This document shows, in pieces, positions 4,811-42,783 of a DNA stretch of 64,000 nucleotides; the stretch's first letter is position 1; each line of letters opens with the position of its first letter. Source of the DNA: Candidatus Nomurabacteria bacterium (GTDB taxonomy: Bacteria > Patescibacteriota > Minisyncoccia > Phycocordibacterales > UBA9973); assembly GCA_026395995.1 (NCBI GenBank), contig JAPLXQ010000006.1:18983-82982 (forward strand). The letters are read 5' to 3'. A program made the translations under genes and the position numbers. Below the pieces are notes generated by a model that saw only the letters and a program-made list of their open reading frames with translations, was not told where the DNA came from and searched no databases.

Positions 4811-6511
4811 ATGATTAGAAGAATTTTAAAAAACAAAAGAACAAAAAATGCTAACTCATATGTAGACCCAGATGAGATTTTTCTCGATTCTCAAAATATT
4901 GGTAATTTTGATGTTCAACAATTTGAAGGACGTATCGAGCGACCCGTCTCTAAAAAAACAGTATTTTTTCTTGGAACTTTCTTTATTATTTGTGGAATTT
5001 TGTTTTTAAGTCGACTTGGTTTTTTGCAAATTCAAAAAGGTGAAGCCTATTTTCAAAGAAGTGAAAATAATACCTTAGATAAAAAAATCCTATTTGCTGA
5101 TAGAGGTATTATATTTGATCGAAATAAAAAACAATTGGCTTGGAATGTAAAAGATGAGACGGTAGGAGAATTTGCCTCTCGTAAGTATCTAGAAAATGGA
5201 TTTTCTCACATTATCGGATACTTGTCTTATCCAGCCAAAGATAAGGCTGGTAATTATTGGCGAGAAAGTTTTACCGGTAAAGACGGAATAGAAAAACAAT
5301 ATGATGCACGACTCCAAGGTGTGAACGGGGTTAAAATCGTGGAAAACGATGTTCATGGCAAAGTCTATTCTGAAAATGTCGTAAATGCACCAGTCCGAGG
5401 AGCTGATTTAGATTTATCTCTTGATTCACGAATTCAAACAAAATTATTTTCTTCTATCAAAACTTTGTCTGAACAAATTCCTTTCAAAGGTGGAGCGGGG
5501 ATGATTATTGATGTGACTAATGGAGAAATAATTGCGAGTGTTTCTTATCCTGAATATGATTCAGCAATTCTTGCCAGTGGAAAAGATGTCGCTGTTATTA
5601 ATGGATATTTAAATGATAAAAGACAAGTCTTTATGGATAGAACTCTTTCTGGTCTTTATACACCGGGATCTATCGTCAAGCCGATCGTCGCCTTGGGTGC
5701 TTTGCAAGAAAAAGTAATTGATCCATTAACAAAGATTCTTTCCACTGGATCTATTTCAATTCCAAACCCATATGATAAAACAAAAGAGACGGTCTTCAAA
5801 GACTGGCGTGCGCAAGGATGGGTAAATATGCGAGACGCTATTGCCGTATCTTCCGACGTTTATTTTTATGAAATCGGAGGAGGTTTCCAAAGTCAAAAAG
5901 GTCTCGGTATTGCTAATATAGAAAAATATTCAAGAATGTTTGGTATTGGTGAAAAAACTGGAGTAGATATGCCTGATGAAAAAAGCGGAGTCATCCCTAG
6001 TCCAGAATGGAAAGCAATTCATTTTCCGACTGATGCAGCTTGGAGAGTGGGAGATACCTATCACACAGCCATTGGACAGTATGGATACCAAGTCACACCA
6101 ATACAAATGGTTCGAGCGATAGGTGCTGTCGCGAATTATGGAAATCTTGTGACTCCACATTTTTTATTAAATGATAGTCTAAAAAATTCTCAAGTTTCAA
6201 AAATAGATTTGAATCGAGATTATTTTAATGTTGTCCACGAAGGAATGAGGCAAGGAGTACTCGCTGGTACGACTGTCGCCTTGAACGTACCTTATGTACA
6301 AGTCGCTGCAAAGTCTGGTACGGCTCAGCTCGGTGTCGCGAAAAACAAAGTAAACTCTTGGGTGACAGGATTTTTCCCTTATGATCATCCGCATTATGCT
6401 TTTATCGTGATGATGGAAGCTGGACCAAAGACAAATGGAGTGGGAGGTACAGCAGTTATGCGTGAACTCTTGGACTATATGTCCACCGATACCCCTGAGT
6501 ATTTTAAGTAG
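4811..6511 (+). CDS. Penicillin-binding protein 2 / peptidoglycan D,D-transpeptidase (PBP2/FtsI class)
   Basis: N-terminal TM anchor, then transpeptidase motifs: SxxK (GSIVKP), SxN-like (SSDVYFY) and KTG-like (AKSGTAQ). Length 566 aa. Confidence 0.85.
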   Translation: MIRRILKNKRTKNANSYVDPDEIFLDSQNIGNFDVQQFEGRIERPVSKKTVFFLGTFFIICGILFLSRLGFLQIQKGEAYFQRSENNTLDKKILFADRGIIFDRNKKQLAWNVKDETVGEFASRKYLENGFSHIIGYLSYPAKDKAGNYWRESFTGKDGIEKQYDARLQGVNGVKIVENDVHGKVYSENVVNAPVRGADLDLSLDSRIQTKLFSSIKTLSEQIPFKGGAGMIIDVTNGEIIASVSYPEYDSAILASGKDVAVINGYLNDKRQVFMDRTLSGLYTPGSIVKPIVALGALQEKVIDPLTKILSTGSISIPNPYDKTKETVFKDWRAQGWVNMRDAIAVSSDVYFYEIGGGFQSQKGLGIANIEKYSRMFGIGEKTGVDMPDEKSGVIPSPEWKAIHFPTDAAWRVGDTYHTAIGQYGYQVTPIQMVRAIGAVANYGNLVTPHFLLNDSLKNSQVSKIDLNRDYFNVVHEGMRQGVLAGTTVALNVPYVQVAAKSGTAQLGVAKNKVNSWVTGFFPYDHPHYAFIVMMEAGPKTNGVGGTAVMRELLDYMSTDTPEYFK

Positions 6512-6619: not shown

Positions 6620-7096
6620 ATGAAAAAGAGATCTTTTTTAAACAAAGTTGGTGTTTTTTTTGGTGGAATTTTTGCAACCAAAGCGAGTTCGTATAGTTTC
6701 GATTATTTACTTTATCCATTAGCTATCCATTATCTTGGACTAGAATGGGGATTTGTAGTCATGCTGTTACTATCTTTTGTTTTAAATTATCTTTTCATCC
6801 TTCTGTATAATTCAACACAGAGAGATATCTTTGGTTTTGAAAAACTAAAAGAATTAAAAGATAAAACAACAAAAGAAAGTAAATCTTTTATCGCCCGATT
6901 AGTGGGTATGGGTTACGTGATGACTTTCATTGCATTGTCATTCTATGATCCATTCTTTGCAGTATTGTGGTTCCGGAAATCTACCAAGTTTGATAAAATG
7001 ACCAAAAGTGATTGGAAAATCTTAACGATTAGTACAATCATCGGAAATCTTATTTGGGCACCGATGGTATTCGGAGCACTTAAAATCTTCGAATAA
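6620..7096 (+). CDS. Hypothetical integral membrane protein
   Basis: Multiple hydrophobic helices (VGVFFGGIFATKA, FVVMLLLSFVLNYLFILLY, VMTFIALSFYDPFFAVLWF, ILTISTIIGNLIWAPMVFGAL). No recognisable catalytic motif. Confidence 0.4.
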   Translation: MKKRSFLNKVGVFFGGIFATKASSYSFDYLLYPLAIHYLGLEWGFVVMLLLSFVLNYLFILLYNSTQRDIFGFEKLKELKDKTTKESKSFIARLVGMGYVMTFIALSFYDPFFAVLWFRKSTKFDKMTKSDWKILTISTIIGNLIWAPMVFGALKIFE

Positions 7097-7107
7097 GTAA
7101 AACTAAA

Positions 7108-7137
7108 TTGCTCAGCTAATTAGCTGAGCAATTTTTA
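7108..7137 (+). terminator. Rho-independent terminator: 12-bp perfect palindrome TTGCTCAGCTAATTAGCTGAGCAA followed by TTTTTATTT
   Basis: Perfect hairpin read directly 12 nt after the stop of the 6620..7096 gene, followed by a T-tract. Confidence 0.8.
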
Positions 7138-7322
7138 TTTAATCAAAAATTAAACTCCACTGTGGATGGAATTGAACTGTTAAATTTATGGATTTTTGGA
7201 GATAGGTATCTACTCCGAATTCCATTAATACAATTACTTCCAAGTGTTCACTGATTTCTGTACAATTTTCGATACCAACATAATAATATCGATTTTGTTT
7301 TTCTTCTTTTTGTAATGATTGC

Positions 7323-7481
7323 TCAAAAAAGAAGTATACATCCCAATCTTTTTTTTAGGAAAAGTCCGGCCATTCCGCAAATTCCATCACAAATCCCTTC
7401 AATTGGTAATTTATGTTCTGTCTTCTGTGCTTCACAATTAATACAAATTAAAGAAAATAAGGTAAAGATCACTTTTTTCAT
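7323..7481 (-). CDS. Small (52 aa) Cys-containing secreted-peptide candidate, absent from the supplied ORF track because it is under 60 aa: MKKVIFTLFSLICINCEAQKTEHKLPIEGICDGICGMAGLFLKKRLGCILLF
   Basis: ATG at 7481 and TGA at 7323 on the minus strand, translated by hand. Signal-peptide-like N-terminus, a GICDGICG motif and an amphipathic C-terminus. It sits in the ORF-free gap upstream of the YcaO locus. Confidence 0.3.
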   Translation of the reverse strand: MKKVIFTLFSLICINCEAQKTEHKLPIEGICDGICGMAGLFLKKRLGCILLF

Positions 7482-7538
7482 AATATTAATTTTTAAAACT
7501 TTGTTTATAGTTTATCATTGTTTATCTAAAAGTCAAGA

Positions 7539-7568
7539 TTGACACTGTTTATTTTTATATAGTATCAT
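7539..7568 (+). promoter_or_regulatory. Candidate sigma70-type promoter (TTGACA - N18 - TATCAT) upstream of the small-peptide ORF at 7629
   Basis: TTGACA at 7539-7544 and an AT-rich -10 region at 7556-7568, about 60 nt upstream of the ATG. Confidence 0.3.
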
Positions 7569-7628
7569 TATTATGAATAAACTCATGTAGTGTGAGAGTT
7601 CATTAAGTTCATTTAATCTCTAAAAAAG

Positions 7629-7730
7629 ATGAAAAAGAAAATCTTTAAATCCGTAAAGTTATCTGCCCCAAAAATTGCAATTCCTAAATCAGGAAATTGT
7701 GGTGGAAACTCATGTAAATGCAAGCACTGA
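7629..7730 (+). CDS. 33-aa peptide MKKKIFKSVKLSAPKIAIPKSGNCGGNSCKCKH: candidate RiPP precursor (Lys-rich leader plus Gly/Ser/Cys-rich C-terminal core). Absent from the ORF track
   Basis: Hand translation from ATG 7629 to TGA 7728-7730. A candidate promoter lies upstream and a perfect terminator hairpin directly downstream. Core composition (G/N/S/C) is typical of azol(in)e-type precursors. It is about 0.9 kb upstream of the RRE-YcaO gene on the same strand. Confidence 0.4.
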   Translation: MKKKIFKSVKLSAPKIAIPKSGNCGGNSCKCKH

Positions 7731-7750
7731 TTGCACATAATGCATTGTAA

Positions 7751-7782
7751 AATACACCTATAAATTTAGGTGTATTTTTTTT
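7751..7782. terminator. Bidirectional rho-independent terminator (ACACCTA taaattt TAGGTGT + T8) shared by the convergent small peptide (+) and HExxH peptidase (-) genes
   Basis: Hairpin and T-tract read directly at 7754-7782; A-rich on the other side. Confidence 0.7.
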
Positions 7783-8632
7783 ATTTTCTAAAAAAACTAA
7801 ATATTTGTTTCGGATTTATTTTAAAAAGTTCCAGAAGGGTATTTCCTGACCTACTTATAACTTCGTCAATGAGCCAATAACCAAGACTATATCCATACCA
7901 ATTTTGTAGATTTTTTGTTCCAAAAAAATACGAAAGATAGAAATCAATATTACTATCATCAATAAAAAGATTTAAATCTTTTTCAGATATTATATTAAGT
8001 TCTTTGATAGCATCTTCTTTGTTTAAAGTAGTAGACCATGGGGCACGATTACCACCTACAATAAATTCTCTAAAATGCTCAGCCAATCCTTCATTTACCA
8101 TTCCATCTAAAATGGAATTCCATGAATATTGCGATGTATATGCAAGATGAGCATATTCGTGAGGTATAGTTTCCCTTAAGGATACTTGCCATTTCTCATT
8201 TGTTGTATCAATGAGTAAATACATAATATTTCCTTCAACTATAAAACCATTTACCCCATCTAAGTCTTCACTTGCTTCTTTGTTATAAAGCGGAAGTATA
8301 TAAACGTTAATATTTTTTGTAACAGAAACTGCATTAAAAGATTTTTTAATAATAACTTCAACTATTTTTGAAATAGTTTCAATATGTTCAAATATGTTTA
8401 TGTAAAAAGATTGTTCTGATTCACCAAAAATTTTACGACCGAGATCGTTTTTTAACTTCTCTTCGTTTGAATACTCACCAAGACTAAAATTCGGAGTATT
8501 TTTTATTTGTGTAAAAATGTCCTCTAAAGAAGAAGTTTTTGATTCTGAAGAATGAGGTTGTATATAAAAAAAATCTACTTTTACAGATTTTGATAAATAT
8601 TGACTTTTTATTTTTTCATTGTTATTGTTCAT
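7781..8632 (-). CDS. Putative Zn-dependent peptidase (HExxH...E gluzincin-like; DUF2268-like), cytoplasmic
   Basis: IPHEYAHLAY (HExxH) followed by NEGLAEHF, which supplies the third zinc-ligand Glu. 283 aa, no signal peptide. Divergently transcribed from the YcaO gene with only a 32-bp gap. Confidence 0.55.
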   Translation of the reverse strand: MNNNNEKIKSQYLSKSVKVDFFYIQPHSSESKTSSLEDIFTQIKNTPNFSLGEYSNEEKLKNDLGRKIFGESEQSFYINIFEHIETISKIVEVIIKKSFNAVSVTKNINVYILPLYNKEASEDLDGVNGFIVEGNIMYLLIDTTNEKWQVSLRETIPHEYAHLAYTSQYSWNSILDGMVNEGLAEHFREFIVGGNRAPWSTTLNKEDAIKELNIISEKDLNLFIDDSNIDFYLSYFFGTKNLQNWYGYSLGYWLIDEVISRSGNTLLELFKINPKQIFSFFRK

Positions 8633-8664
8633 ATAAATAAAGTGAACCTTAAAAAATATAATCC

Positions 8665-10161
8665 ATGAAAAATAATGAATATTTCCCTCGATTTATCGCC
8701 AAATGGATTAAACATCCTCAAGGCATACAAGTATATGCTCTTAAAGAAAGCATAACACTTGAAGAAATGAATGTACAGGCTATTTCTTCAATAGAAAAAA
8801 TATGTTCAGGTAAGAACAATCTTGATGAAGTGATCCGTAAATTGTCACTTAAATGGGACAAGGATGATATAGTGACATTGATTTATCTTTTCATTGAAAA
8901 GCAAATTATTGTTAATAATAAAGAAGTAAATCCTTTAGTTAAGGGTTGTAAGTTAAAAAAAATAGAGACCCTTTTACCAAACCAAGAAACAGTTGATATT
9001 TTAAATCTACCATATCAAGTTATTTACGGGAGAGCTGGTTCTGATATTTGGTCTTCAGGGAAAGATATAGATATTAATATTGCTACAAATAAAATGATTT
9101 CTGAAATTGCTGAATGGAATGCATGGAATTTTCCAAAAAAAGAATGTACTCTTTTTGGGTCATTTGAAAGTCTTGCTAGTAAAAACATACTAGTACCACC
9201 TAGTGATATTATTAATTATGCTGATTTTCAATATAGTGATATTTTATTTCCTTATAAAATATTCAATCCACTATCAAATTATAATTGGATTTGTGCAAAA
9301 AATTTTATAAATAACGAGAAGGTTTTTATATTCTCTGAACATATTCTTTTTACGCAAAATCCAATATATGTTGCTAATACATCGTCTGGTTGTTCAGCTC
9401 ATGTTAATAAAAATAAAGCTATTCATCATGCTGTGCATGAATTAATCGAAAGAGACGCTTTTATGATTTACTGGTTAAATAAGTTAGATCGACCTAGAAT
9501 TAATTTAAATTCATTACCAGAAAGTATTATATTTCGAGTAAAAAATATTCAAAATCTTGGATACCGTCTTACTATTAATGACATCAGTATGGGGATTGCT
9601 CCAGTTATTATGGTTGCTTTGCAAGATATAGATGGTTGTTATGTAACTTCTGGATTAGCTTCATTGTATGACTTCGAGGCCATGTTTAGCTCTGCATTAT
9701 CAGAAGTCGAGGTTAGTCTACTTCATATTTTGAATAGTAAAAAGATTGTACAAAAAAAATTGAAACCAGAAACAGTGAAATCTCTTGTTCAACATGAAGA
9801 GTTACATCAGCAAATAATGTATCAAAAAGAAACTTCATTCATATTTGAATCAAGTAAAGAAATTTCTTTTAAAAACTTTATGATAGCTTATAAGGATGAA
9901 AAAAATATCATCAAAACGATATTAGACAAAGGTTTTGATTTGTATGTTGTTGATGCAACAGATTGGGAGATTGATGTTTTACTACCAGAACATCGTCATA
10001 TTGTTCGAGCTATTATTCCAGGTCTTGTACCGTTATCTTTTGGTTATCACAAAGAACCATTAGGTATGTCTAGGATTTATGAAGTGCCTGTTCAGTTAGG
10101 TTTTCGTAGTAATACTATCTCGTATCAAGAGCTGAATAGATTTCCTCATCCGTTTAATTAA
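8665..10161 (+). CDS. RRE (PqqD-like) - YcaO fusion protein; predicted ATP-dependent peptide cyclodehydratase/backbone-modifying enzyme of a RiPP-type pathway
   Basis: N-terminal ~100 aa fits the PqqD/RRE pattern (ITLEEMNVQAISSIEKICSGKNNLDEVIRKLSLKWDKDDIVTLIYLFIEKQIIV). YcaO motifs follow: YGRAGSDIWSSGKDIDINIATNKMISEIAEWNAW and SSGCSAHVNKNKAIHHAVHELIERDAF (the ExxER ATP/Mg site). The C-terminus ends ...RFPHPFN, a PxP-type Pro-rich tail like that of azoline-forming YcaOs. Confidence 0.75.
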   Translation: MKNNEYFPRFIAKWIKHPQGIQVYALKESITLEEMNVQAISSIEKICSGKNNLDEVIRKLSLKWDKDDIVTLIYLFIEKQIIVNNKEVNPLVKGCKLKKIETLLPNQETVDILNLPYQVIYGRAGSDIWSSGKDIDINIATNKMISEIAEWNAWNFPKKECTLFGSFESLASKNILVPPSDIINYADFQYSDILFPYKIFNPLSNYNWICAKNFINNEKVFIFSEHILFTQNPIYVANTSSGCSAHVNKNKAIHHAVHELIERDAFMIYWLNKLDRPRINLNSLPESIIFRVKNIQNLGYRLTINDISMGIAPVIMVALQDIDGCYVTSGLASLYDFEAMFSSALSEVEVSLLHILNSKKIVQKKLKPETVKSLVQHEELHQQIMYQKETSFIFESSKEISFKNFMIAYKDEKNIIKTILDKGFDLYVVDATDWEIDVLLPEHRHIVRAIIPGLVPLSFGYHKEPLGMSRIYEVPVQLGFRSNTISYQELNRFPHPFN

Positions 10162-10169
10162 AACAACTT

Positions 10170-10201
10170 ACACCCAGCCAAATATCATCTGGGTGTTTTT
10201 A
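10170..10201 (+). terminator. Rho-independent terminator after the YcaO gene (ACACCCAG ccaaatatcat CTGGGTGT + TTTTTA)
   Basis: 8-bp perfect stem plus T-run, read directly 9 nt after the stop codon. Confidence 0.65.
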
Positions 10202-10202
10202 T

Positions 10203-11072
10203 TTGCTGATTTTTACAGGGGATTATGATATTATTAATACTATGTCAGAAGAAAATCAGAAAATTTCAATCGGGGATTATGATACTATAATGAATGATAG
10301 AAATATCTTTAATCAGATAGTGTATACACCGCTTTCTGAAGCGCTTAGGCTTCTCGAAGAAAGACAAAAAGATCCAGTATTAATGGCAAAAATTGAAGAA
10401 TTACTTAATGGTGATATTCCAGAAGTTTTGAAACCTATTGGTAAATATGCAGTTCAATTTAGACAAATTGCAACACCCAACAATGAATGTAAGTATTTTC
10501 TAAAGATTTCTAATAATTTCGGCTTAACTCCAACACTCATGGAATACCATAGTGATAAATTTTCTTCTAATAATTTTTTTAAACGTTCCCTAGGTCAATT
10601 ACACATACAAGGACCTATAAATAAAAAAAATGAATACCAGATTGAAAAAATTACCATTATGGATTTTAATAAACATAATGGTAAAAAATTAAATGAAGTT
10701 GTTACCCATTGGAACGAATCAATCATTGATTTCCATAGAAAATTATTTAATATATGTGACTTAAATACTAAAGAATGTAATTTTTATGACACTTCGGAAT
10801 GGATTAATAATCACGGATCTAGTCCAGAGGAATATTATAAACAATTCCTTATTTTATTTGTTTGTCATGGAATTTTATTTGAAAATTTTCTTTTAAACAA
10901 AGAAGAAAGTTCTTTTATTAAAAATGTAATTTTACCAGCATTAGAAGATGTTATAAATTTAACAGGAGTAAAACCACTAATTGTACCCGGTTCTCCTATT
11001 GATATTGAAGATGAAAATTTCTGGGTTCTATATCATCCAAATATTAAGACTATAATTCAAAATGAAAAATAA
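10203..11072 (+). CDS. Hypothetical protein (289 aa) with no recognisable motif; first gene of a tightly packed 4-gene unit with the SET protein, a Cys-rich protein and a histidine kinase. The true start may be the internal MSEENQK
   Basis: ORF only. Overlaps the next gene by 11 nt. Asn/Lys/Ile-rich. No assignable domain by eye. Confidence 0.35.
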   Translation: MLIFTGDYDIINTMSEENQKISIGDYDTIMNDRNIFNQIVYTPLSEALRLLEERQKDPVLMAKIEELLNGDIPEVLKPIGKYAVQFRQIATPNNECKYFLKISNNFGLTPTLMEYHSDKFSSNNFFKRSLGQLHIQGPINKKNEYQIEKITIMDFNKHNGKKLNEVVTHWNESIIDFHRKLFNICDLNTKECNFYDTSEWINNHGSSPEEYYKQFLILFVCHGILFENFLLNKEESSFIKNVILPALEDVINLTGVKPLIVPGSPIDIEDENFWVLYHPNIKTIIQNEK

Positions 11073-11616
11073 AACACCAAAGTTAAAAAAGAAAAGTACA
11101 GGTAAATATGGTAATGGTTTTTACGCTGATGAAGACATAAAAAAGGGGACTATAATCCATATGTTTACAGGGAAAAGAATGGATGTAAAAGAATTAGTTC
11201 AAAAAGTTAATTCTAACAAAGAAAATATTGATGACCCATTTCAAATAGGCAAAAGAACATATATTGACTTAGACGAAGTATCTAGAACATTTAATCATAG
11301 TTGTGACCCTAATTGTGGGATAAGAAAAGTTGGTGAAATGTTTTCCTTAAGAGATATTAAAAAAGGAGAAGAAATTACTTATGATTATTCATTAACTATA
11401 GCACCTACAGAATGGAAAATGAAATGTTTGTGTAAAAGTAAAAATTGTCGTAAAATATTAGGAGATATAAATTCTGTATCAAAAAAACAATTAGATTCTT
11501 ACAAGAAATTTGGAGCTTTGCAAAACTACATGAAGAAACTATTAAAAGAAATAGAAAGTGGTAATTACAAAGTACCAAAATATGAAATTGAAGCTTTAAA
11601 CAGTCTTAAAATATAG
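11062..11616 (+). CDS. SET-domain protein lysine methyltransferase (with post-SET Cys cluster)
   Basis: GNGFYADEDIKKGTII (SET N-region), RTFNHSCDPNCGIR (the canonical NHSCxPN motif), EEITYDYS (ELxF/YDY motif) and post-SET CLCKSKNCRKILG. Confidence 0.8.
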   Translation: MKNKTPKLKKKSTGKYGNGFYADEDIKKGTIIHMFTGKRMDVKELVQKVNSNKENIDDPFQIGKRTYIDLDEVSRTFNHSCDPNCGIRKVGEMFSLRDIKKGEEITYDYSLTIAPTEWKMKCLCKSKNCRKILGDINSVSKKQLDSYKKFGALQNYMKKLLKEIESGNYKVPKYEIEALNSLKI

Positions 11617-11667
11617 TAAGTTATTTTTTATAAATATTAAATATGTTAAAATAATAATAAGTTAAAA

Positions 11668-12024
11668 ATGAAAAAAAATACCAAAGCCATTATTGTAATA
11701 ATCCCGATTTTATTTTTAGTAATATTTAGTTATAGGTATTATCAATATATAATTCAAAAAAACTATATATTAGAAGTTAATACTATTTGTAATTCTGAAA
11801 TAGAAAACTGTTTTGATTCTTCAGATTTAAGTTTTGGTCAAAATCCTTATAAAAAAGTAAGAGTTTTAGATAAATATGCTCCTAAATGTCTCGAAGAACA
11901 TAATTGTGATAGCTTTTATTGTCCTGTTAGCCTAGGTAAAGATAAATGTGAAATTACTTACTGTTCAGATGAAACAAAAGTCGATGGGGAAGGTTGCACA
12001 AATAAAATAATAACTAATCAATAA
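11668..12024 (+). CDS. Small Cys-rich secreted or membrane-anchored protein (10 Cys in the ~85-aa extracytoplasmic part)
   Basis: N-terminal hydrophobic anchor AIIVIIPILFLVIFSY. Then CNSEIENCFDSSD...KCLEEHNCDSFYCPVSLGKDKCEITYCSDETKVDGEGC, consistent with a disulfide-rich fold. Confidence 0.45.
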   Translation: MKKNTKAIIVIIPILFLVIFSYRYYQYIIQKNYILEVNTICNSEIENCFDSSDLSFGQNPYKKVRVLDKYAPKCLEEHNCDSFYCPVSLGKDKCEITYCSDETKVDGEGCTNKIITNQ

Positions 12025-12026
12025 AA

Positions 12027-13757
12027 ATGCTATCTCATTTCATAAATATTCAATATTGTTATACATATCTTATTGACCAGACACCTGTAAGTCTTTTGTT
12101 ATACTCACATATACCTACAGCTATACTTGCTTTATTTTTTGGTATTTTTATTTTTCTAAAAAATAGAAGCCAGCAAGGTTTTGCTCTGTTAATGATTTGT
12201 ATATCTTTTGCTCTTTGGTGTCTTTTTGATCTGAGTTCTTGGTTTTCTTTTATTGGATCTGGGAATACCATGCTTGCATGGTCACTATTAGATTTAATTT
12301 CATTAATTATGTTCTTCTTTTCTTATTACTTTCTATATACTTTTATTACAGAAAAGGATTTTCCTATTTGGCAATGGTTTGTTGGATTTATTTTAATACT
12401 ACCTACGGCCGTTTGGACATTGTTAGGTAAAAATTTACCTAACTATGATTCAAATAACTGTCAAGCAATAGAAAATACTAAAATTACTGGTTACCTATTT
12501 TATATTTTAGGTCTATTTATAATAATTTCTTCTGTATTTTCTATATATCAGTATATGAAAAATAAAGAAAATTTTGAAAAAAGAAAAAAGATTTTACTAG
12601 TTGGGAGCGGTATAATATTATTTTTAATTTTCTTTTTTTCAGCATTATTAGCTGTTAATTTATTAGCAAATAGTGATTCATCTGGATATGTCTATAACTA
12701 TGAAATTTATGGTTTGTTTGGAATGCCGATATTGCTTATATTCTTAGGTTATCTTGTTATAAAATTCAAGGCATTTAATGTAAAACTTATTTCAGCTCAA
12801 GCATTAATATTTGCCTTGATAACTTTGATAGGTTCTCAGTTTTTGTTTATTACAAGTACAGTAAACTTTATATTAAATGGGGTCACATTTATCGGAGTAG
12901 TAATTTTTGGAATTTTCCTTATTGAATCTGTTAAAAAAGAAGTAAGACAAAAAGAATATTTAGAAAAACTAACAATAGAATTAAACGATTCAAAAATGCG
13001 ACTTGAGGATACAAATATCAAGCTTGAAAGTGCAAATGACAAACTTCAATCTCTCGATAAATTAAAGACAGAGTTCCTTTCACTCGCTTCACACCAGCTT
13101 CGTAGTCCTTTGACAGCTATTACAGGCTATACATCGATGCTACTCGATGGATCATTTGGAAAAATGGATGACAAGCAGAAGGAAGCTATTGACCGTGTGT
13201 ATCAATCTAGTCGTCATCTCTCTACTACAGTGGAAGATTTGTTGAACGTGACAAAGATCGAGCAAGGTGGAATGCAATACGTGATGGCAGATTTTGATTT
13301 TGAAAAAGCTGCTCAAGATTTAGCCAAAGATTTATCCGTCACTGCTGAGAAAAAAGGTTTGAAGCTCACTTTCAAGACAGATAAAAAATCTCCATATACA
13401 GTAAAAGGTGATATGGAAAAAATCCGTCAGGTTATTTTGAATTTTATAGATAACTCTATTAAATATACGAAAAAGGGAAGTATTCATGTACTTATATCAA
13501 AAGATGAAGATAAGAAAAAAATTCGTCTTTCTATTACCGATACAGGTATGGGTATGACTCCAGAGATAAAAGCAAAATTATTCCAAAAATTCTCTCGTGC
13601 TGAAGGAGCAAAAATGAATGCTGGAGGTTCTGGTCTCGGTCTCTATCTAGCAAAGAAAATCATTGAAGAAGGGCATCATGGTGCTGTAGGTGTCGATTCT
13701 GATGGTACAGACCTAGGTTCCACCTTCTGGATGGAATTGGATGAGGCTACAAACTAA
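12027..13757 (+). CDS. Sensor histidine kinase with N-terminal multi-pass (7TM-type) membrane domain, HisKA and HATPase_c; no cognate response regulator in the window
   Basis: About 7 hydrophobic helices in the first 300 aa; a coiled-coil linker; the H-box FLSLASHQLRSPLTAITGY; the N-box NFIDNSIKYT; G-boxes DTGMGM and GGSGLGLYLAKKI. Confidence 0.85.
   Translation: MLSHFINIQYCYTYLIDQTPVSLLLYSHIPTAILALFFGIFIFLKNRSQQGFALLMICISFALWCLFDLSSWFSFIGSGNTMLAWSLLDLISLIMFFFSYYFLYTFITEKDFPIWQWFVGFILILPTAVWTLLGKNLPNYDSNNCQAIENTKITGYLFYILGLFIIISSVFSIYQYMKNKENFEKRKKILLVGSGIILFLIFFFSALLAVNLLANSDSSGYVYNYEIYGLFGMPILLIFLGYLVIKFKAFNVKLISAQALIFALITLIGSQFLFITSTVNFILNGVTFIGVVIFGIFLIESVKKEVRQKEYLEKLTIELNDSKMRLEDTNIKLESANDKLQSLDKLKTEFLSLASHQLRSPLTAITGYTSMLLDGSFGKMDDKQKEAIDRVYQSSRHLSTTVEDLLNVTKIEQGGMQYVMADFDFEKAAQDLAKDLSVTAEKKGLKLTFKTDKKSPYTVKGDMEKIRQVILNFIDNSIKYTKKGSIHVLISKDEDKKKIRLSITDTGMGMTPEIKAKLFQKFSRAEGAKMNAGGSGLGLYLAKKIIEEGHHGAVGVDSDGTDLGSTFWMELDEATN

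Positions 13758-40372: not shown

Positions 40373-42783
<2,411 letters not shown>

What the first reader, a model, noticed from the sequence alone, without database searches (positions are those of the whole stretch)
7323..13757. Compact RiPP-like locus: small Cys peptides, HExxH peptidase, RRE-YcaO fusion, SET methyltransferase, Cys-rich secreted protein, orphan 7TM histidine kinase
Between PBP2 and cysS the housekeeping content stops and a block of accessory genes appears. (i) A ~650-bp ORF-poor gap holds two small Cys-containing peptide genes, each with its own promoter or terminator signals. (ii) A cytoplasmic HExxH...E peptidase is transcribed divergently from the next gene with only a 32-bp gap. 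(iii) A 498-aa protein fuses a PqqD-like RiPP recognition element to a YcaO domain with an intact ExxER ATP site and a Pro-rich ...FPHPFN C-terminus. (iv) A four-gene unit follows: a 289-aa unknown, a canonical SET-domain methyltransferase (NHSCDPNC, post-SET Cys cluster), a 10-Cys secreted protein and a 7TM sensor kinase lacking a response regulator. A direct RRE-YcaO fusion without an E1-like partner, next to a SET enzyme, is not an architecture I recognise from characterised TOMM, thiopeptide, bottromycin or thioamitide clusters. A host or neighbour-directed function is conceivable for an episymbiont-type genome.
Basis: partly seen in the sequence, partly recalled or inferred. Interest (0 to 1): 0.85.

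Follow-up and report, generated by a model that had tools for sequence, protein, structure and literature searches.

The report
Minimal azoline-peptide cassette in a CPR bacterium
The flagged stretch holds a rare three-gene cassette (a 33-residue cysteine-rich peptide, a zinc peptidase and a peptide-binding YcaO enzyme) that most likely makes a small thiazoline-containing peptide, inserted next to an unrelated gene cluster that is common in this bacterial lineage.

Summary

**Unit A (about 7525-10204)** is a conserved RiPP-like cassette:
- A 33-aa precursor gene (7629-7730) with its own promoter-like site and terminator.
- A convergent DUF2268 HExxH-x18-E metallopeptidase (7781-8632, minus strand).
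- A divergent 498-aa protein (8665-10161) joining a RiPP recognition element (RRE) directly to a YcaO domain.

**Unit B** (276-aa unknown, SET, Cys-rich anchored protein, polytopic histidine kinase, plus the membrane protein at 6620-7096) is widespread in Paceibacteria without any YcaO. The 52-aa ORF is missing from a near-identical strain.

LAP clusters in CPR genomes were already reported in 2020, so this is a new variant of a known kind.

The parts
7539..7568 (+). Unit A: sigma-70-like promoter of the precursor gene (TTGACA-18-TATCAT)
   Evidence: It matches 11 of 12 consensus positions and is the best site in 7000-10300. Near-identity with strain contig L001 resumes at about 7521, just upstream of it. 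It is a consensus match only; function was not tested.
7629..7730 (+). Unit A: precursor peptide gene, 33 aa (MKKKIFKSVKLSAPKIAIPKSGNCGGNSCKCKH). Basic leader plus a core ending in GNCGGNxCKCxH.
   Evidence: It is found at the same position in 7 of 7 related loci that cover the region. P19 and G22-N-C-G-G-N, C29-K-C and H33 are invariant. The invariant codons vary synonymously across loci. No Pfam or NCBIfam family matches.
7749..7778 (.). Unit A: hairpin terminator between the convergent peptide and DUF2268 genes
   Evidence: It has a 12-pair stem followed by a T run. A hairpin follows the peptide stop codon in all seven loci (sequences).
7781..8632 (-). Unit A: cytoplasmic DUF2268 gluzincin metallopeptidase (283 aa), the putative leader peptidase
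   Evidence: Pfam PF10026 at 7e-28. HExxH-x18-E is invariant. The best match among solved structures is an M1 aminopeptidase, E 0.011. It is adjacent to the YcaO gene in all 8 distinct family loci and in the fusion-type locus L057/L058. Hydropathy finds no TM segment.
8665..10161 (+). Unit A: 498-aa RRE-YcaO fusion. RRE is about aa 8-84 (8686-8916), a short linker follows, and the YcaO domain is about aa 113-498.
10170..10196 (+). Unit A right edge: terminator hairpin ACACCCAGCC..CTGGGTGT after the YcaO stop codon
   Evidence: There is one copy in the window. In strain contig L001 a 46-nt copy (85% identical) lies on each side of the cassette, at 2429-2474 and 5142-5187.
7161..7520 (.). Not part of Unit A: strain-variable segment carrying the 52-aa ORF (7323-7481, minus strand)
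   Evidence: It is absent from L001, which is otherwise 96.6-99.9% identical across PBP2-YcaO. tblastn finds no homolog of the 52-aa ORF in any related locus.
6620..7096 (+). Unit B: 158-aa membrane protein with 3-4 hydrophobic segments
   Evidence: Homologs lie beside the Unit B genes in L061 (50%), L060 (29%) and L057 (29%).
10242..11072 (+).
   Evidence: It has more than 422 homologs in Paceibacteria/Nomurabacteria. It lies beside the kinase in L008-L010, L057, L060 and L061. No Pfam or PDB relative was found.
11062..11616 (+). Unit B (optional member): SET-domain methyltransferase, 184 aa
   Evidence: Pfam SET 1.7e-15. 498 homologs were found; the best 120 are 56-74% identical. It sits between the 276-aa homolog and the kinase in L060 and L061, with no YcaO present. 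It is absent from L008-L010 and L057.
11668..12024 (+). Unit B: N-terminally anchored Cys-rich protein, 118 aa with 8 Cys
   Evidence: It has one hydrophobic segment at aa 7-25. Homologs are in L061 (42%), L008 (30%), L060 and L057.
12027..13757 (+). Unit B: polytopic sensor histidine kinase, 576 aa
   Evidence: HisKA plus HATPase_c. Full-length orthologs are in L061 (53%), L010, L008 (40%) and L057 (29%). No receiver domain was found in the window.

Best explanation
The interval contains two independent units.

**Unit A (about 7525-10204)** is a self-contained three-gene cassette for a ribosomally made, post-translationally modified peptide.
1. The 33-aa precursor is transcribed from its own promoter.
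2. Its basic, partly hydrophobic leader (consensus MKxLFxxVKVxxPK) is bound by the RRE at the N-terminus of the 498-aa enzyme.
3. The fused YcaO domain uses ATP to activate the backbone amides before the three invariant Cys of the core (GNCGGNxCKCxH) and cyclises them to thiazolines.
4. No dehydrogenase is present, so the rings would stay as azolines.
5. The cytoplasmic DUF2268 zinc peptidase then removes the leader, leaving a cationic product of about 11-12 residues.

The enzyme most likely descends from single-chain RRE-SagB-YcaO azole synthetases by loss of the dehydrogenase domain. The cassette behaves as an insertion into the host backbone.

**Unit B** (membrane protein 6620-7096, 276-aa protein, SET, Cys-rich anchored protein, polytopic histidine kinase) is a lineage-wide Paceibacteria cluster of unknown function that does not depend on the cassette.

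**Shown:** gene content, conservation, folds, family placement and independence of the two units.
**Inferred:** substrate binding, thiazoline chemistry, the role of the peptidase and the fate of the product.
For: **Co-occurrence**
- DUF2268 is adjacent to the YcaO gene in all 8 distinct family loci.
- The peptide is present in 7 of 7 loci that cover its position. Its invariant core residues are encoded by varying synonymous codons, and a terminator hairpin follows each copy.
- The flanking genes differ in every locus.

**Enzyme**
- Pfam YcaO match. E259, E262, R263, E347 and E349 are invariant.
- The C-terminal FPHPF aligns to the TruD C-terminus.
- The best solved relatives are LynD, MusD and TruD, ranked above E. 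coli YcaO.

**Descent**
- The nearest relatives are proteins of about 720-750 aa with the same N-terminal domain (hhalign 97%), a SagB-type dehydrogenase (above the TIGR03605 cutoff) and a YcaO domain.
- In a neighbour-joining (NJ) tree the 500-aa clade nests among them.
- One such fusion (P0017, locus L057) is also followed by a DUF2268 gene and a convergent Gly/Cys-rich small ORF..CRSGGGGNGKCGGKCSK.

**Peptidase**
- HExxH-x18-E gluzincin.

**Insertion**
- 46-nt direct repeats flank the cassette in L001.
- L061 has the same backbone (orf158 homolog ... 274aa-SET-117aa-HK-cysS-CorA) with no cassette.

**Independence of Unit B**
-.
Against: - No chemistry was observed.
- The TIGR03604 SagD score is below the curated cutoff (157 against 219).
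- Known azoline-forming YcaOs normally need an E1-like or Ocin-ThiF-like partner for activity as well as for binding. None was found in the protein or in the 64-kb window (limited sensitivity). [quoted passage not shown]
- No exporter or immunity gene is conserved with the cassette.
- The RRE is invisible to sequence models.
- The family is small: 13 sequences in the homolog search and 2-3 representative clusters. Conservation statistics therefore rest on 7-8 loci.
- The NJ tree has no support values.
- Two of the eight cassette-type loci (the window and L057) lie beside Unit B, which leaves some room for a functional link.
Confidence: 0.7

Rival explanations
1. One reading: the whole 7323-13757 block is one RiPP locus. 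The 289-aa protein, the SET methyltransferase, the Cys-rich protein and the kinase would tailor, bind or sense the YcaO product, and the 52-aa peptide would be a second precursor.
For: All genes from YcaO to the kinase lie on one strand with short gaps. A distant cassette (L057, YcaO 29% identical) also lies within 2 kb of the Cys-rich/276-aa/kinase genes.
Against: Six of the eight distinct cassette loci have none of these genes nearby. The 276-aa and SET families have hundreds of members against 13 for the YcaO. The same four genes in the same order occur in L061 without YcaO. The 276-aa gene is 78% identical between two strains whose DUF2268 and YcaO genes are 99.7-99.9% identical. The 52-aa ORF is missing in L001.
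Confidence: 0.06
2. The cassette and substrate are as proposed, but the YcaO does different chemistry: backbone thioamidation, amidine formation, or ATP-dependent peptide-bond cleavage as reported for MusD.
For: YcaO enzymes are known to catalyse all of these from the same activated intermediate (established knowledge). MusD (7u58) is among the top structural matches. The SagD model score is below its cutoff. No E1-like partner was found.
Against: No TfuA-like neighbour appears in any locus (Pfam lists). The only invariant nucleophiles in the core are three Cys. The Pro-rich C-terminus aligns to that of TruD; from my own recollection of the YcaO literature, not checked here, that motif is typical of cyclodehydratases. 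The sister clade carries a SagB dehydrogenase, which only makes sense after azoline formation.
Confidence: 0.15
3. The YcaO/DUF2268 pair acts on a protein substrate, as E. coli YcaO does with RimO/S12 or the archaeal YcaO does on McrA. The 33-aa ORF would be an unrelated small metal-binding or ribosome-associated basic peptide that merely sits nearby.
For: Some sources annotate homologs as 'ribosomal protein S12 methylthiotransferase accessory factor'. The peptide is basic with a Cys3-His end that could bind zinc. No exporter is present.
Against: The window protein has no match to the NCBIfam E. coli-type model. E. coli YcaO ranks below the heterocyclases by fold. A fused RRE is a peptide-leader-binding module. 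The peptide gene is present in every locus although the surroundings are otherwise unrelated.
Confidence: 0.05

Closest known systems
Linear azol(in)e-containing peptide (LAP/TOMM) clusters, including those reported in CPR genomes (Sharrar et al. 2020, PMC7298704)
   Same: Both have a YcaO cyclodehydratase-type enzyme, an adjacent short precursor with a Cys-rich core, and a peptidase proposed to remove the leader. That paper reports 110 LAP clusters in 93 CPR genomes, 51 of them Parcubacteria.
   Different: The published CPR example has a separate nitroreductase and an 84-aa precursor, and 89 of the 110 clusters have a nitroreductase next to YcaO. Here there is no dehydrogenase and the precursor is 32-37 aa with an invariant GNCGGNxCKCxH. 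The peptidase is a DUF2268; the held paper library has no paper that mentions both YcaO and DUF2268.
Cyanobactin heterocyclases LynD / TruD / PatD (fused E1-like plus YcaO)
   Same: They are the best solved relatives by sequence profile and by fold. Each is a single chain carrying an RRE plus a YcaO domain. The C-terminal Pro-rich tail aligns. They make azolines without a dehydrogenase domain of their own.
   Different: Those enzymes are about 750-780 aa with an E1-like domain of roughly 200-300 aa between the RRE and the YcaO domain. Here the RRE (aa 8-84) is joined to the YcaO domain by about 30 residues, so there is no room for an E1-like domain. Identity is 15-17%.
I found no paper describing them.
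   Same: They share a homologous N-terminal domain (hhalign 97%). Their YcaO domains are the closest to this family. At least one (L057) is followed by a DUF2268 gene and a Gly/Cys-rich small ORF.
   Different: They carry a SagB-type FMN dehydrogenase domain (above the TIGR03605 cutoff), so they should make azoles. The window protein lacks it. Other members have different neighbours and no DUF2268 (L059, L062).
Microcin B17 system (McbA plus McbBCD, with TldD/E proteolysis)
   Same: It has a Gly/Cys-rich core and an RRE-bearing scaffold (McbB is among the fold matches). The leader is removed by a metalloprotease (the last point is from established knowledge).
   Different: It uses a separate scaffold, dehydrogenase and YcaO in an octameric complex, has a 69-aa precursor, yields an azole product, and has a dedicated exporter and immunity genes. 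None of these is present here.
Standalone YcaOs of bottromycin biosynthesis
   Same: They act without an E1-like partner (Cox et al. 2015, PMC4603692; PMC8442711).
   Different: To my knowledge (not checked here) those enzymes carry no RRE and their precursor has a follower peptide rather than a leader. Here an RRE is fused and the peptide has an N-terminal leader.

Membership tests
YcaO superfamily (PF02624) | Pfam YcaO domain above the gathering score | tested here: met
   113 bits against a cutoff of 25.7, covering aa 140-454.
YcaO superfamily (PF02624) | Conserved acidic/Arg residues of the ATP-Mg site | tested here: met
   E259, E262, R263, E347 and E349 are invariant in 13 sequences. Assigning them to the published ATP site rests on my knowledge of YcaO structures, not on a superposition done here.
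TOMM/LAP azoline-forming cyclodehydratase (SagD type, TIGR03604) | Score above the curated NCBIfam cutoff | tested here: not met
   156.9 bits against a cutoff of 219.25. It is still the best NCBIfam hit and spans the full profile length.
TOMM/LAP azoline-forming cyclodehydratase (SagD type, TIGR03604) | Pro-rich C-terminal tail (PxPxP-like) | tested here: met
   The ...NRFPHPFN end is nearly invariant and aligns to the TruD C-terminus ..PTPMPF.
TOMM/LAP azoline-forming cyclodehydratase (SagD type, TIGR03604) | E1-like (C) or Ocin-ThiF-like (F) partner, fused or adjacent (definition in Cox 2015) | tested here: not met
   The protein is too short to hold one (RRE aa 8-84, YcaO from about aa 113). 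phmmer with the E1-like-containing YcaO fusion P0022 finds nothing else in the window. None appears in the neighbours of four related loci. The rest of the genome was not available.
TOMM/LAP azoline-forming cyclodehydratase (SagD type, TIGR03604) | Adjacent precursor with a Cys/Ser/Thr-rich core | tested here: met
   The 33-aa ORF has three invariant Cys in its last 10 residues and is conserved in 7 of 7 loci.
TOMM/LAP azoline-forming cyclodehydratase (SagD type, TIGR03604) | FMN dehydrogenase (SagB/McbC) for azole formation | tested here: not met
   None is in the cassette or in the window. It is present as a fused domain in the sister clade.
TOMM/LAP azoline-forming cyclodehydratase (SagD type, TIGR03604) | Azol(in)e rings in the product | not testable with these tools
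   This needs expression and mass spectrometry.
RiPP recognition element (PqqD-like wHTH) | Sequence match to PqqD (PF05402) or another RRE model | tested here: not met
   No hit for the full protein or for 10 isolated N-terminal domains at E up to 10. A PDB profile search also found nothing.
RiPP recognition element (PqqD-like wHTH) | Three-stranded sheet followed by three helices, superposable on solved RREs | tested here: met
RiPP recognition element (PqqD-like wHTH) | Binds the precursor leader | not testable with these tools
   No multimer prediction or binding assay was available.
E. coli-type YcaO (S12/RimO accessory factor, NF040716) | Match to the equivalog model, plus the C-terminal TPR-like extension | tested here: not met
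   The window protein has no NF040716 hit at E up to 1. The 4q84-4q86 chains rank below LynD, MusD, TruD and the archaeal YcaOs, with TM 0.39-0.42.
TfuA-associated thioamide-forming YcaO | Adjacent TfuA gene | tested here: not met
   No TfuA family appears among the called neighbours of L003, L004, L006 and L007 or in the window ORFs scanned.
DUF2268 / gluzincin metallopeptidase | Pfam PF10026 match and an HExxH motif plus a downstream Glu ligand | tested here: met
   97.9 bits against a cutoff of 23.6. H158, E159, H162 and E181 are invariant with x18 spacing. There is a weak match to the M1 aminopeptidase 3cia across the motif. Catalysis was not tested.
SET-domain methyltransferase | Pfam SET match with the NHSCxPN motif | tested here: met
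   57.8 bits against a cutoff of 22.4. The motif can be read. NCBI already names the identical protein a SET-domain lysine methyltransferase.
Two-component sensor kinase | HisKA plus HATPase_c, and a cognate response regulator nearby | tested here: inconclusive
   Both kinase domains are present. No receiver domain was found in the 64-kb window or next to orthologs. The rest of the genome was not seen.

The most novel reading that the evidence does not exclude
The cassette product, a short cationic thiazoline- and His-bearing peptide, may be a signal or metal-binding ligand read by the adjacent polytopic, regulator-less histidine kinase cluster (Unit B). That would give a host-dependent CPR bacterium a modified-peptide signalling system. 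The only evidence is that two very divergent cassettes (the window and L057, whose YcaOs are 29% identical) both sit beside Unit B, while six others do not.
Probability: 0.08. Interest if true: 0.75.

Novelty: new variant of a known kind. Interest (0 to 1): 0.5.

Why it matters
- CPR/Patescibacteria have tiny genomes and few biosynthetic clusters. A conserved, mobile three-gene peptide-modification cassette in them points to a molecule that matters for life on or near a host cell.
- If active, the enzyme would be a natural minimal heterocyclase: only an RRE plus a YcaO domain in about 500 aa, with no E1-like domain. That bears on an open question, namely whether the E1-like partner is needed for YcaO activation or only for substrate recruitment. 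It would also be a compact tool for peptide engineering.
- Comparing it with its three-domain RRE-SagB-YcaO sisters gives a natural azoline-versus-azole experiment.
- It assigns a testable role, RiPP leader peptidase, to a subfamily of the uncharacterised DUF2268 family.
- It defines a new precursor family with an unusually rigid 12-residue core.

Tried and rejected
- **Sequence detection of the RRE.** Pfam on the full protein and on 10 isolated N-terminal domains, and a PDB profile search, found nothing usable. There were only weak Lant_dehydr_N hits in 3 of 10 domains. Fold comparison was needed.
- **The 52-aa ORF as a second precursor.** Rejected: no homolog in any locus, and absent from the near-identical strain.
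- **The 289-aa protein as a YcaO partner (TfuA-like or E1-like).** Rejected: no family or PDB match. It is widespread without YcaO.
- **SET as a tailoring enzyme.** Rejected on distribution.
- **Anti-phage defence reading.** PADLOC gave no hits apart from generic kinase ATPase matches.
- **A hidden dehydrogenase, E1-like protein or response regulator elsewhere in the window.** None was found by phmmer.
- **The post-YcaO hairpin as a genome-wide repeat.** Rejected: it has only one copy in the window.
- **Literature.** No paper holds both YcaO and DUF2268. DUF2268 appears in only two unrelated papers. 'GNCGGN' turned up only in a genome announcement whose title is unrelated; I did not open it. 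The YcaO review by Burkhart et al. could not be read.
- **AFDB fold search.** Not available.
- **Peptide-enzyme complex prediction.** Not possible with the tools.
- **Further genome or metagenome scans for the peptide motif.** Blocked by the caps.

Full report
**1. What is in the sequence**

Family scans give the following:
- 7781-8632 (minus strand): DUF2268, a predicted Zn protease, E 7e-28.
- 8665-10161: YcaO, E 2.4e-32. The best NCBIfam hit is the SagD-type TOMM cyclodehydratase model, at 157 bits against a curated cutoff of 219.
- 11062-11616: SET domain.
- 12027-13757: HisKA plus HATPase_c.
- No family for the 289-aa, 118-aa, 158-aa, 52-aa or 33-aa products.

PBP2, cysS and CorA flank the block.

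- The Cys-rich protein has 8 Cys, not 10.
- The kinase has about 8-9 hydrophobic segments.
- The '289-aa' gene probably starts at ATG 10242, giving 276 aa, because its homologs are 257-287 aa.

The organism is a Candidatus Nomurabacteria (Paceibacteria, CPR) genome. A contig from a Nomurabacteria MAG is 97-99.9% identical over most of the region, and identical proteins carry that name at NCBI.

**2. The conserved unit is three genes, not the whole block**

The YcaO protein has only about 13 full-length relatives (43-54% identity, about 500 aa) among 5.8 billion protein clusters. Among 1.84 billion representatives, only two or three clusters match it along its whole length.

I inspected every related locus I could obtain. 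There are eight distinct ones: the window/L001, L002, L003, L004 (identical to L005 and L013), L006, L007 (identical to L015), L011 and L012. L002 is labelled Saccharibacteria.
- A DUF2268 gene is always the divergent neighbour of the YcaO gene. Where both gene starts are well defined, 23-37 bp separate the start codons (L002, L003, L004, L007; the window itself has 32 bp).
- The other flanking genes differ in every locus.
- SET, the 289-aa protein, the Cys-rich protein and a full kinase gene are absent from six of the eight.

**3. The 33-aa ORF is a real, conserved gene; the 52-aa ORF is not**

A small ORF ending in GNCGGNxCKCxH lies just beyond the 3' end of the DUF2268 gene, convergent with it. 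It is present in all seven loci that cover this position.
- In the alignment, P19, G22-N-C-G-G-N, C29-K-C and H33 are invariant. The leader keeps the pattern MKxLFxxVKVxxPK.
- The codon table shows synonymous variation at essentially every invariant residue: GGA/GGG/GGC, AAT/AAC, TGT/TGC, AAA/AAG, CAC/CAT. This is the signature of selection on the protein.
- Each copy is followed by a hairpin.
- In the window the gene has a promoter-like site matching 11 of 12 consensus positions at 7539-7568 and a terminator at 7749-7778.

The 52-aa ORF (7323-7481, minus strand) has no counterpart in any locus. Its segment, about 7161-7520, is missing from strain contig L001. Near-identity between the two strains resumes at about 7521, just upstream of the peptide promoter.

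**4. The enzyme**

An AlphaFold model built from the 13-sequence alignment is confident (pLDDT 85, pTM 0.87).
- *YcaO part.* It is closest to the cyanobactin heterocyclases LynD, MusD and TruD (Foldseek E about 1e-20). Archaeal YcaOs come next, and E. coli YcaO ranks lower. A sequence-profile search of the PDB gives a similar ranking, with TruD, MusD and LynD first and E. coli YcaO absent. In that search the C-terminal ..NRFPHPF aligns to the C-terminus of TruD. E259, E262, R263, E347 and E349 are invariant.
- *No E1-like domain.* Only about 30 residues separate the RRE from the YcaO domain, so there is no room for an E1-like domain. No E1-like or SagB-like protein was found elsewhere in the window.

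Its stated refutation criteria are not met.

**5. Where the enzyme comes from**

The next-best relatives are several hundred proteins of about 720-750 aa (434 hits below E 1e-30). Their architecture is N-terminal domain, then nitroreductase, then YcaO.
- The N-terminal domain is homologous to the one here (hhalign 97%, E 9e-11).
- The middle domain passes the SagB-family dehydrogenase cutoff.
- In a rough neighbour-joining tree of YcaO domains, the 500-aa clade is monophyletic and nested among these fusions, with P0148 and P0149 as sisters (no support values).

Loss of the dehydrogenase domain from a single-chain azole synthetase is the simplest history.

One fusion, P0017 (locus L057), is followed directly by a DUF2268 gene that is 30% identical to the window's. 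After that comes a convergent small ORF ending ..CRSGGGGNGKCGGKCSK. The peptidase partnership and the Gly/Cys-rich substrate type therefore predate the domain loss. Other fusions (L059, L062) have different neighbours.

**6. The peptidase**

H158-E159-x-x-H162 and E181 are invariant, giving HExxH-x18-E, a gluzincin signature. The only solved relative by sequence is an M1 aminopeptidase, matched across this motif (E 0.011). There is no hydrophobic segment, so the protein is probably cytoplasmic.

From my own knowledge, M1-type zinc peptidases remove the leaders of class III lanthipeptides, so this role has a precedent. It was not tested here.

**7. The cassette behaves as an insertion**

In L001 the 2.7-kb cassette is bracketed by 46-nt direct repeats that are 85% identical. 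Each consists of the stop codon of the preceding gene plus the hairpin ACACCCAGC..GCTGGGTGT and a T run. The motif is not a dispersed repeat. The window keeps only the right-hand copy, at 10170-10196. On the left it carries a different hairpin plus the 52-aa segment.

Locus L061 shows the same backbone without a cassette: an orf158 homolog (50%), an M16 peptidase, then 274aa-SET-117aa-kinase-PemK, then cysS and CorA on the opposite strand.

**8. The rest of the block is a separate, widespread cluster (Unit B)**

- The 276-aa protein has more than 422 homologs; the best 120 are 51-70% identical, apart from the 100%-identical NCBI protein.
- The SET protein has 498 homologs; the best 120 are 56-74% identical, again apart from the 100%-identical NCBI protein.
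- In L008, L009 and L010 the 276-aa homolog is followed by the kinase: directly in L008 and L010, after a 39-aa ORF in L009. In L008 and L009, cysS, a transporter gene (CorA in L008, an AI-2E-family transporter in L009) and L21 come next. The Cys-rich protein lies upstream in L008 and L010. None of the three loci has YcaO or SET.
- In L060 the order is orf158 homolog, Cys-rich, 255aa, SET, kinase.

Between the window and L001, nucleotide identity is as follows:

| Segment | nt identity |
|---|---|
| PBP2 | 98.6% |
| orf158 | 96.6% |
| peptide region | 97.3% |
| DUF2268 | 99.9% |
| YcaO | 99.7% |
| spacer after YcaO | 100% |
| 276-aa gene | 78.2% (69% aa) |

A recombination breakpoint thus lies exactly between the two units.

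One observation argues against full independence. L057, a distant cassette, also lies within 2 kb of Unit B genes. This could reflect shared ancestry of the site, an insertion hot spot, or a functional link. I rate the functional link as unlikely but not excluded.

**9. Mechanism**

*Shown:* the parts, their conservation and their folds.

*Inferred, in order:*
1. The leader binds the RRE.
2. The YcaO domain performs ATP-dependent cyclodehydration of the three Cys to thiazolines.
3. No oxidation follows, because there is no dehydrogenase.
4. DUF2268 removes the leader.
5. A cationic product of about 11-12 residues is released.

Export route, target and biological role are unknown.

*Main weaknesses:*
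- No partner protein that could activate the YcaO was found.
- The SagD model score is below its cutoff.
- The sample is only 7-8 loci.

**10. Comparison with what is known**

LAP clusters (YcaO, nitroreductase, peptidase, precursor) have already been reported in CPR genomes, including 51 Parcubacteria. In that study, 21 of the 110 clusters lacked an adjacent nitroreductase (PMC7298704). The kind of system is therefore known.

The 2015 survey of TOMM clusters defines them by an E1-like C protein plus a YcaO D protein. It notes CD fusions, short CD fusions in haloarchaea, and bottromycin and trifolitoxin, where the D protein is believed to act without a C protein (PMC4603692).

The following appear undescribed in the library I could search:
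- the RRE-only fusion to YcaO;
- the DUF2268 partner;
- the GNCGGNxCKCxH precursor family.

I file this as a new variant of a known kind, of moderate interest.

Noticed in passing
window 10242-11072 compared with L001 5225-6021: There is a sharp drop in identity between two otherwise near-identical strains. The YcaO gene and the spacer after it are 99.7-100% identical, but the next gene (the 276-aa protein) is only 78% identical at nucleotide level and 69% at protein level. A recombination breakpoint lies at the start of that gene, and the gene appears to be exchanged or fast-evolving.
   Followed up: partly
L001 2429-2474 and 5142-5187; window 10170-10196: In the sister strain, 46-nt imperfect direct repeats (stop codon plus terminator hairpin, 85% identical) bracket the peptide/DUF2268/YcaO cassette. 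The window has only the right-hand copy. This looks like an insertion scar.
   Followed up: partly
window 7161-7520: A 360-bp strain-specific segment carries the 52-aa ORF (signal-peptide-like N-terminus, 5 Cys). Next to it, at 7105-7134, is a different terminator hairpin. The origin of the segment and whether the ORF is expressed are unknown.
   Followed up: partly
window 6620-7096 and 10242-13757; L008-L010, L057, L060, L061: A conserved Paceibacteria gene cluster of unknown function: a small polytopic membrane protein, an N-terminally anchored Cys-rich protein, a 276-aa cytoplasmic protein with no Pfam or PDB relative, an optional SET methyltransferase, and a polytopic histidine kinase with no response regulator nearby. 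Gene order varies between genomes.
   Followed up: partly
window 10209-10234 and 10263-10288: A 26-nt direct repeat (81% identical) straddles the probable start of the 276-aa gene. It encodes GDYD(I/T) twice. The upstream copy lies in the TTG-extended part of the ORF. The repeat is also present in L001.
   Followed up: no
window 41808-42386 and 42295-42783 (minus strand): The ATP synthase gamma subunit is split into two overlapping ORFs, matching Pfam profile positions 1-137 and 141-284. This could be a frameshift, a sequencing error or a pseudogene. The F1 operon (about 40.3-45.5 kb) also explains the local rise in GC content to 0.42-0.46.
   Followed up: no
L057 13675-14166; L061 7692-8078: Toxin-antitoxin genes (MazE/PemK in L057, PemK in L061) sit directly after the Unit B kinase in two unrelated genomes.
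   Followed up: no
L016 3410-7219: A more distant 540-aa YcaO has a weakly similar N-terminal domain (hhalign 43%). A C39-type peptidase and a separate nitroreductase lie just downstream of it. This is a different way of assembling the same functions.
   Followed up: no
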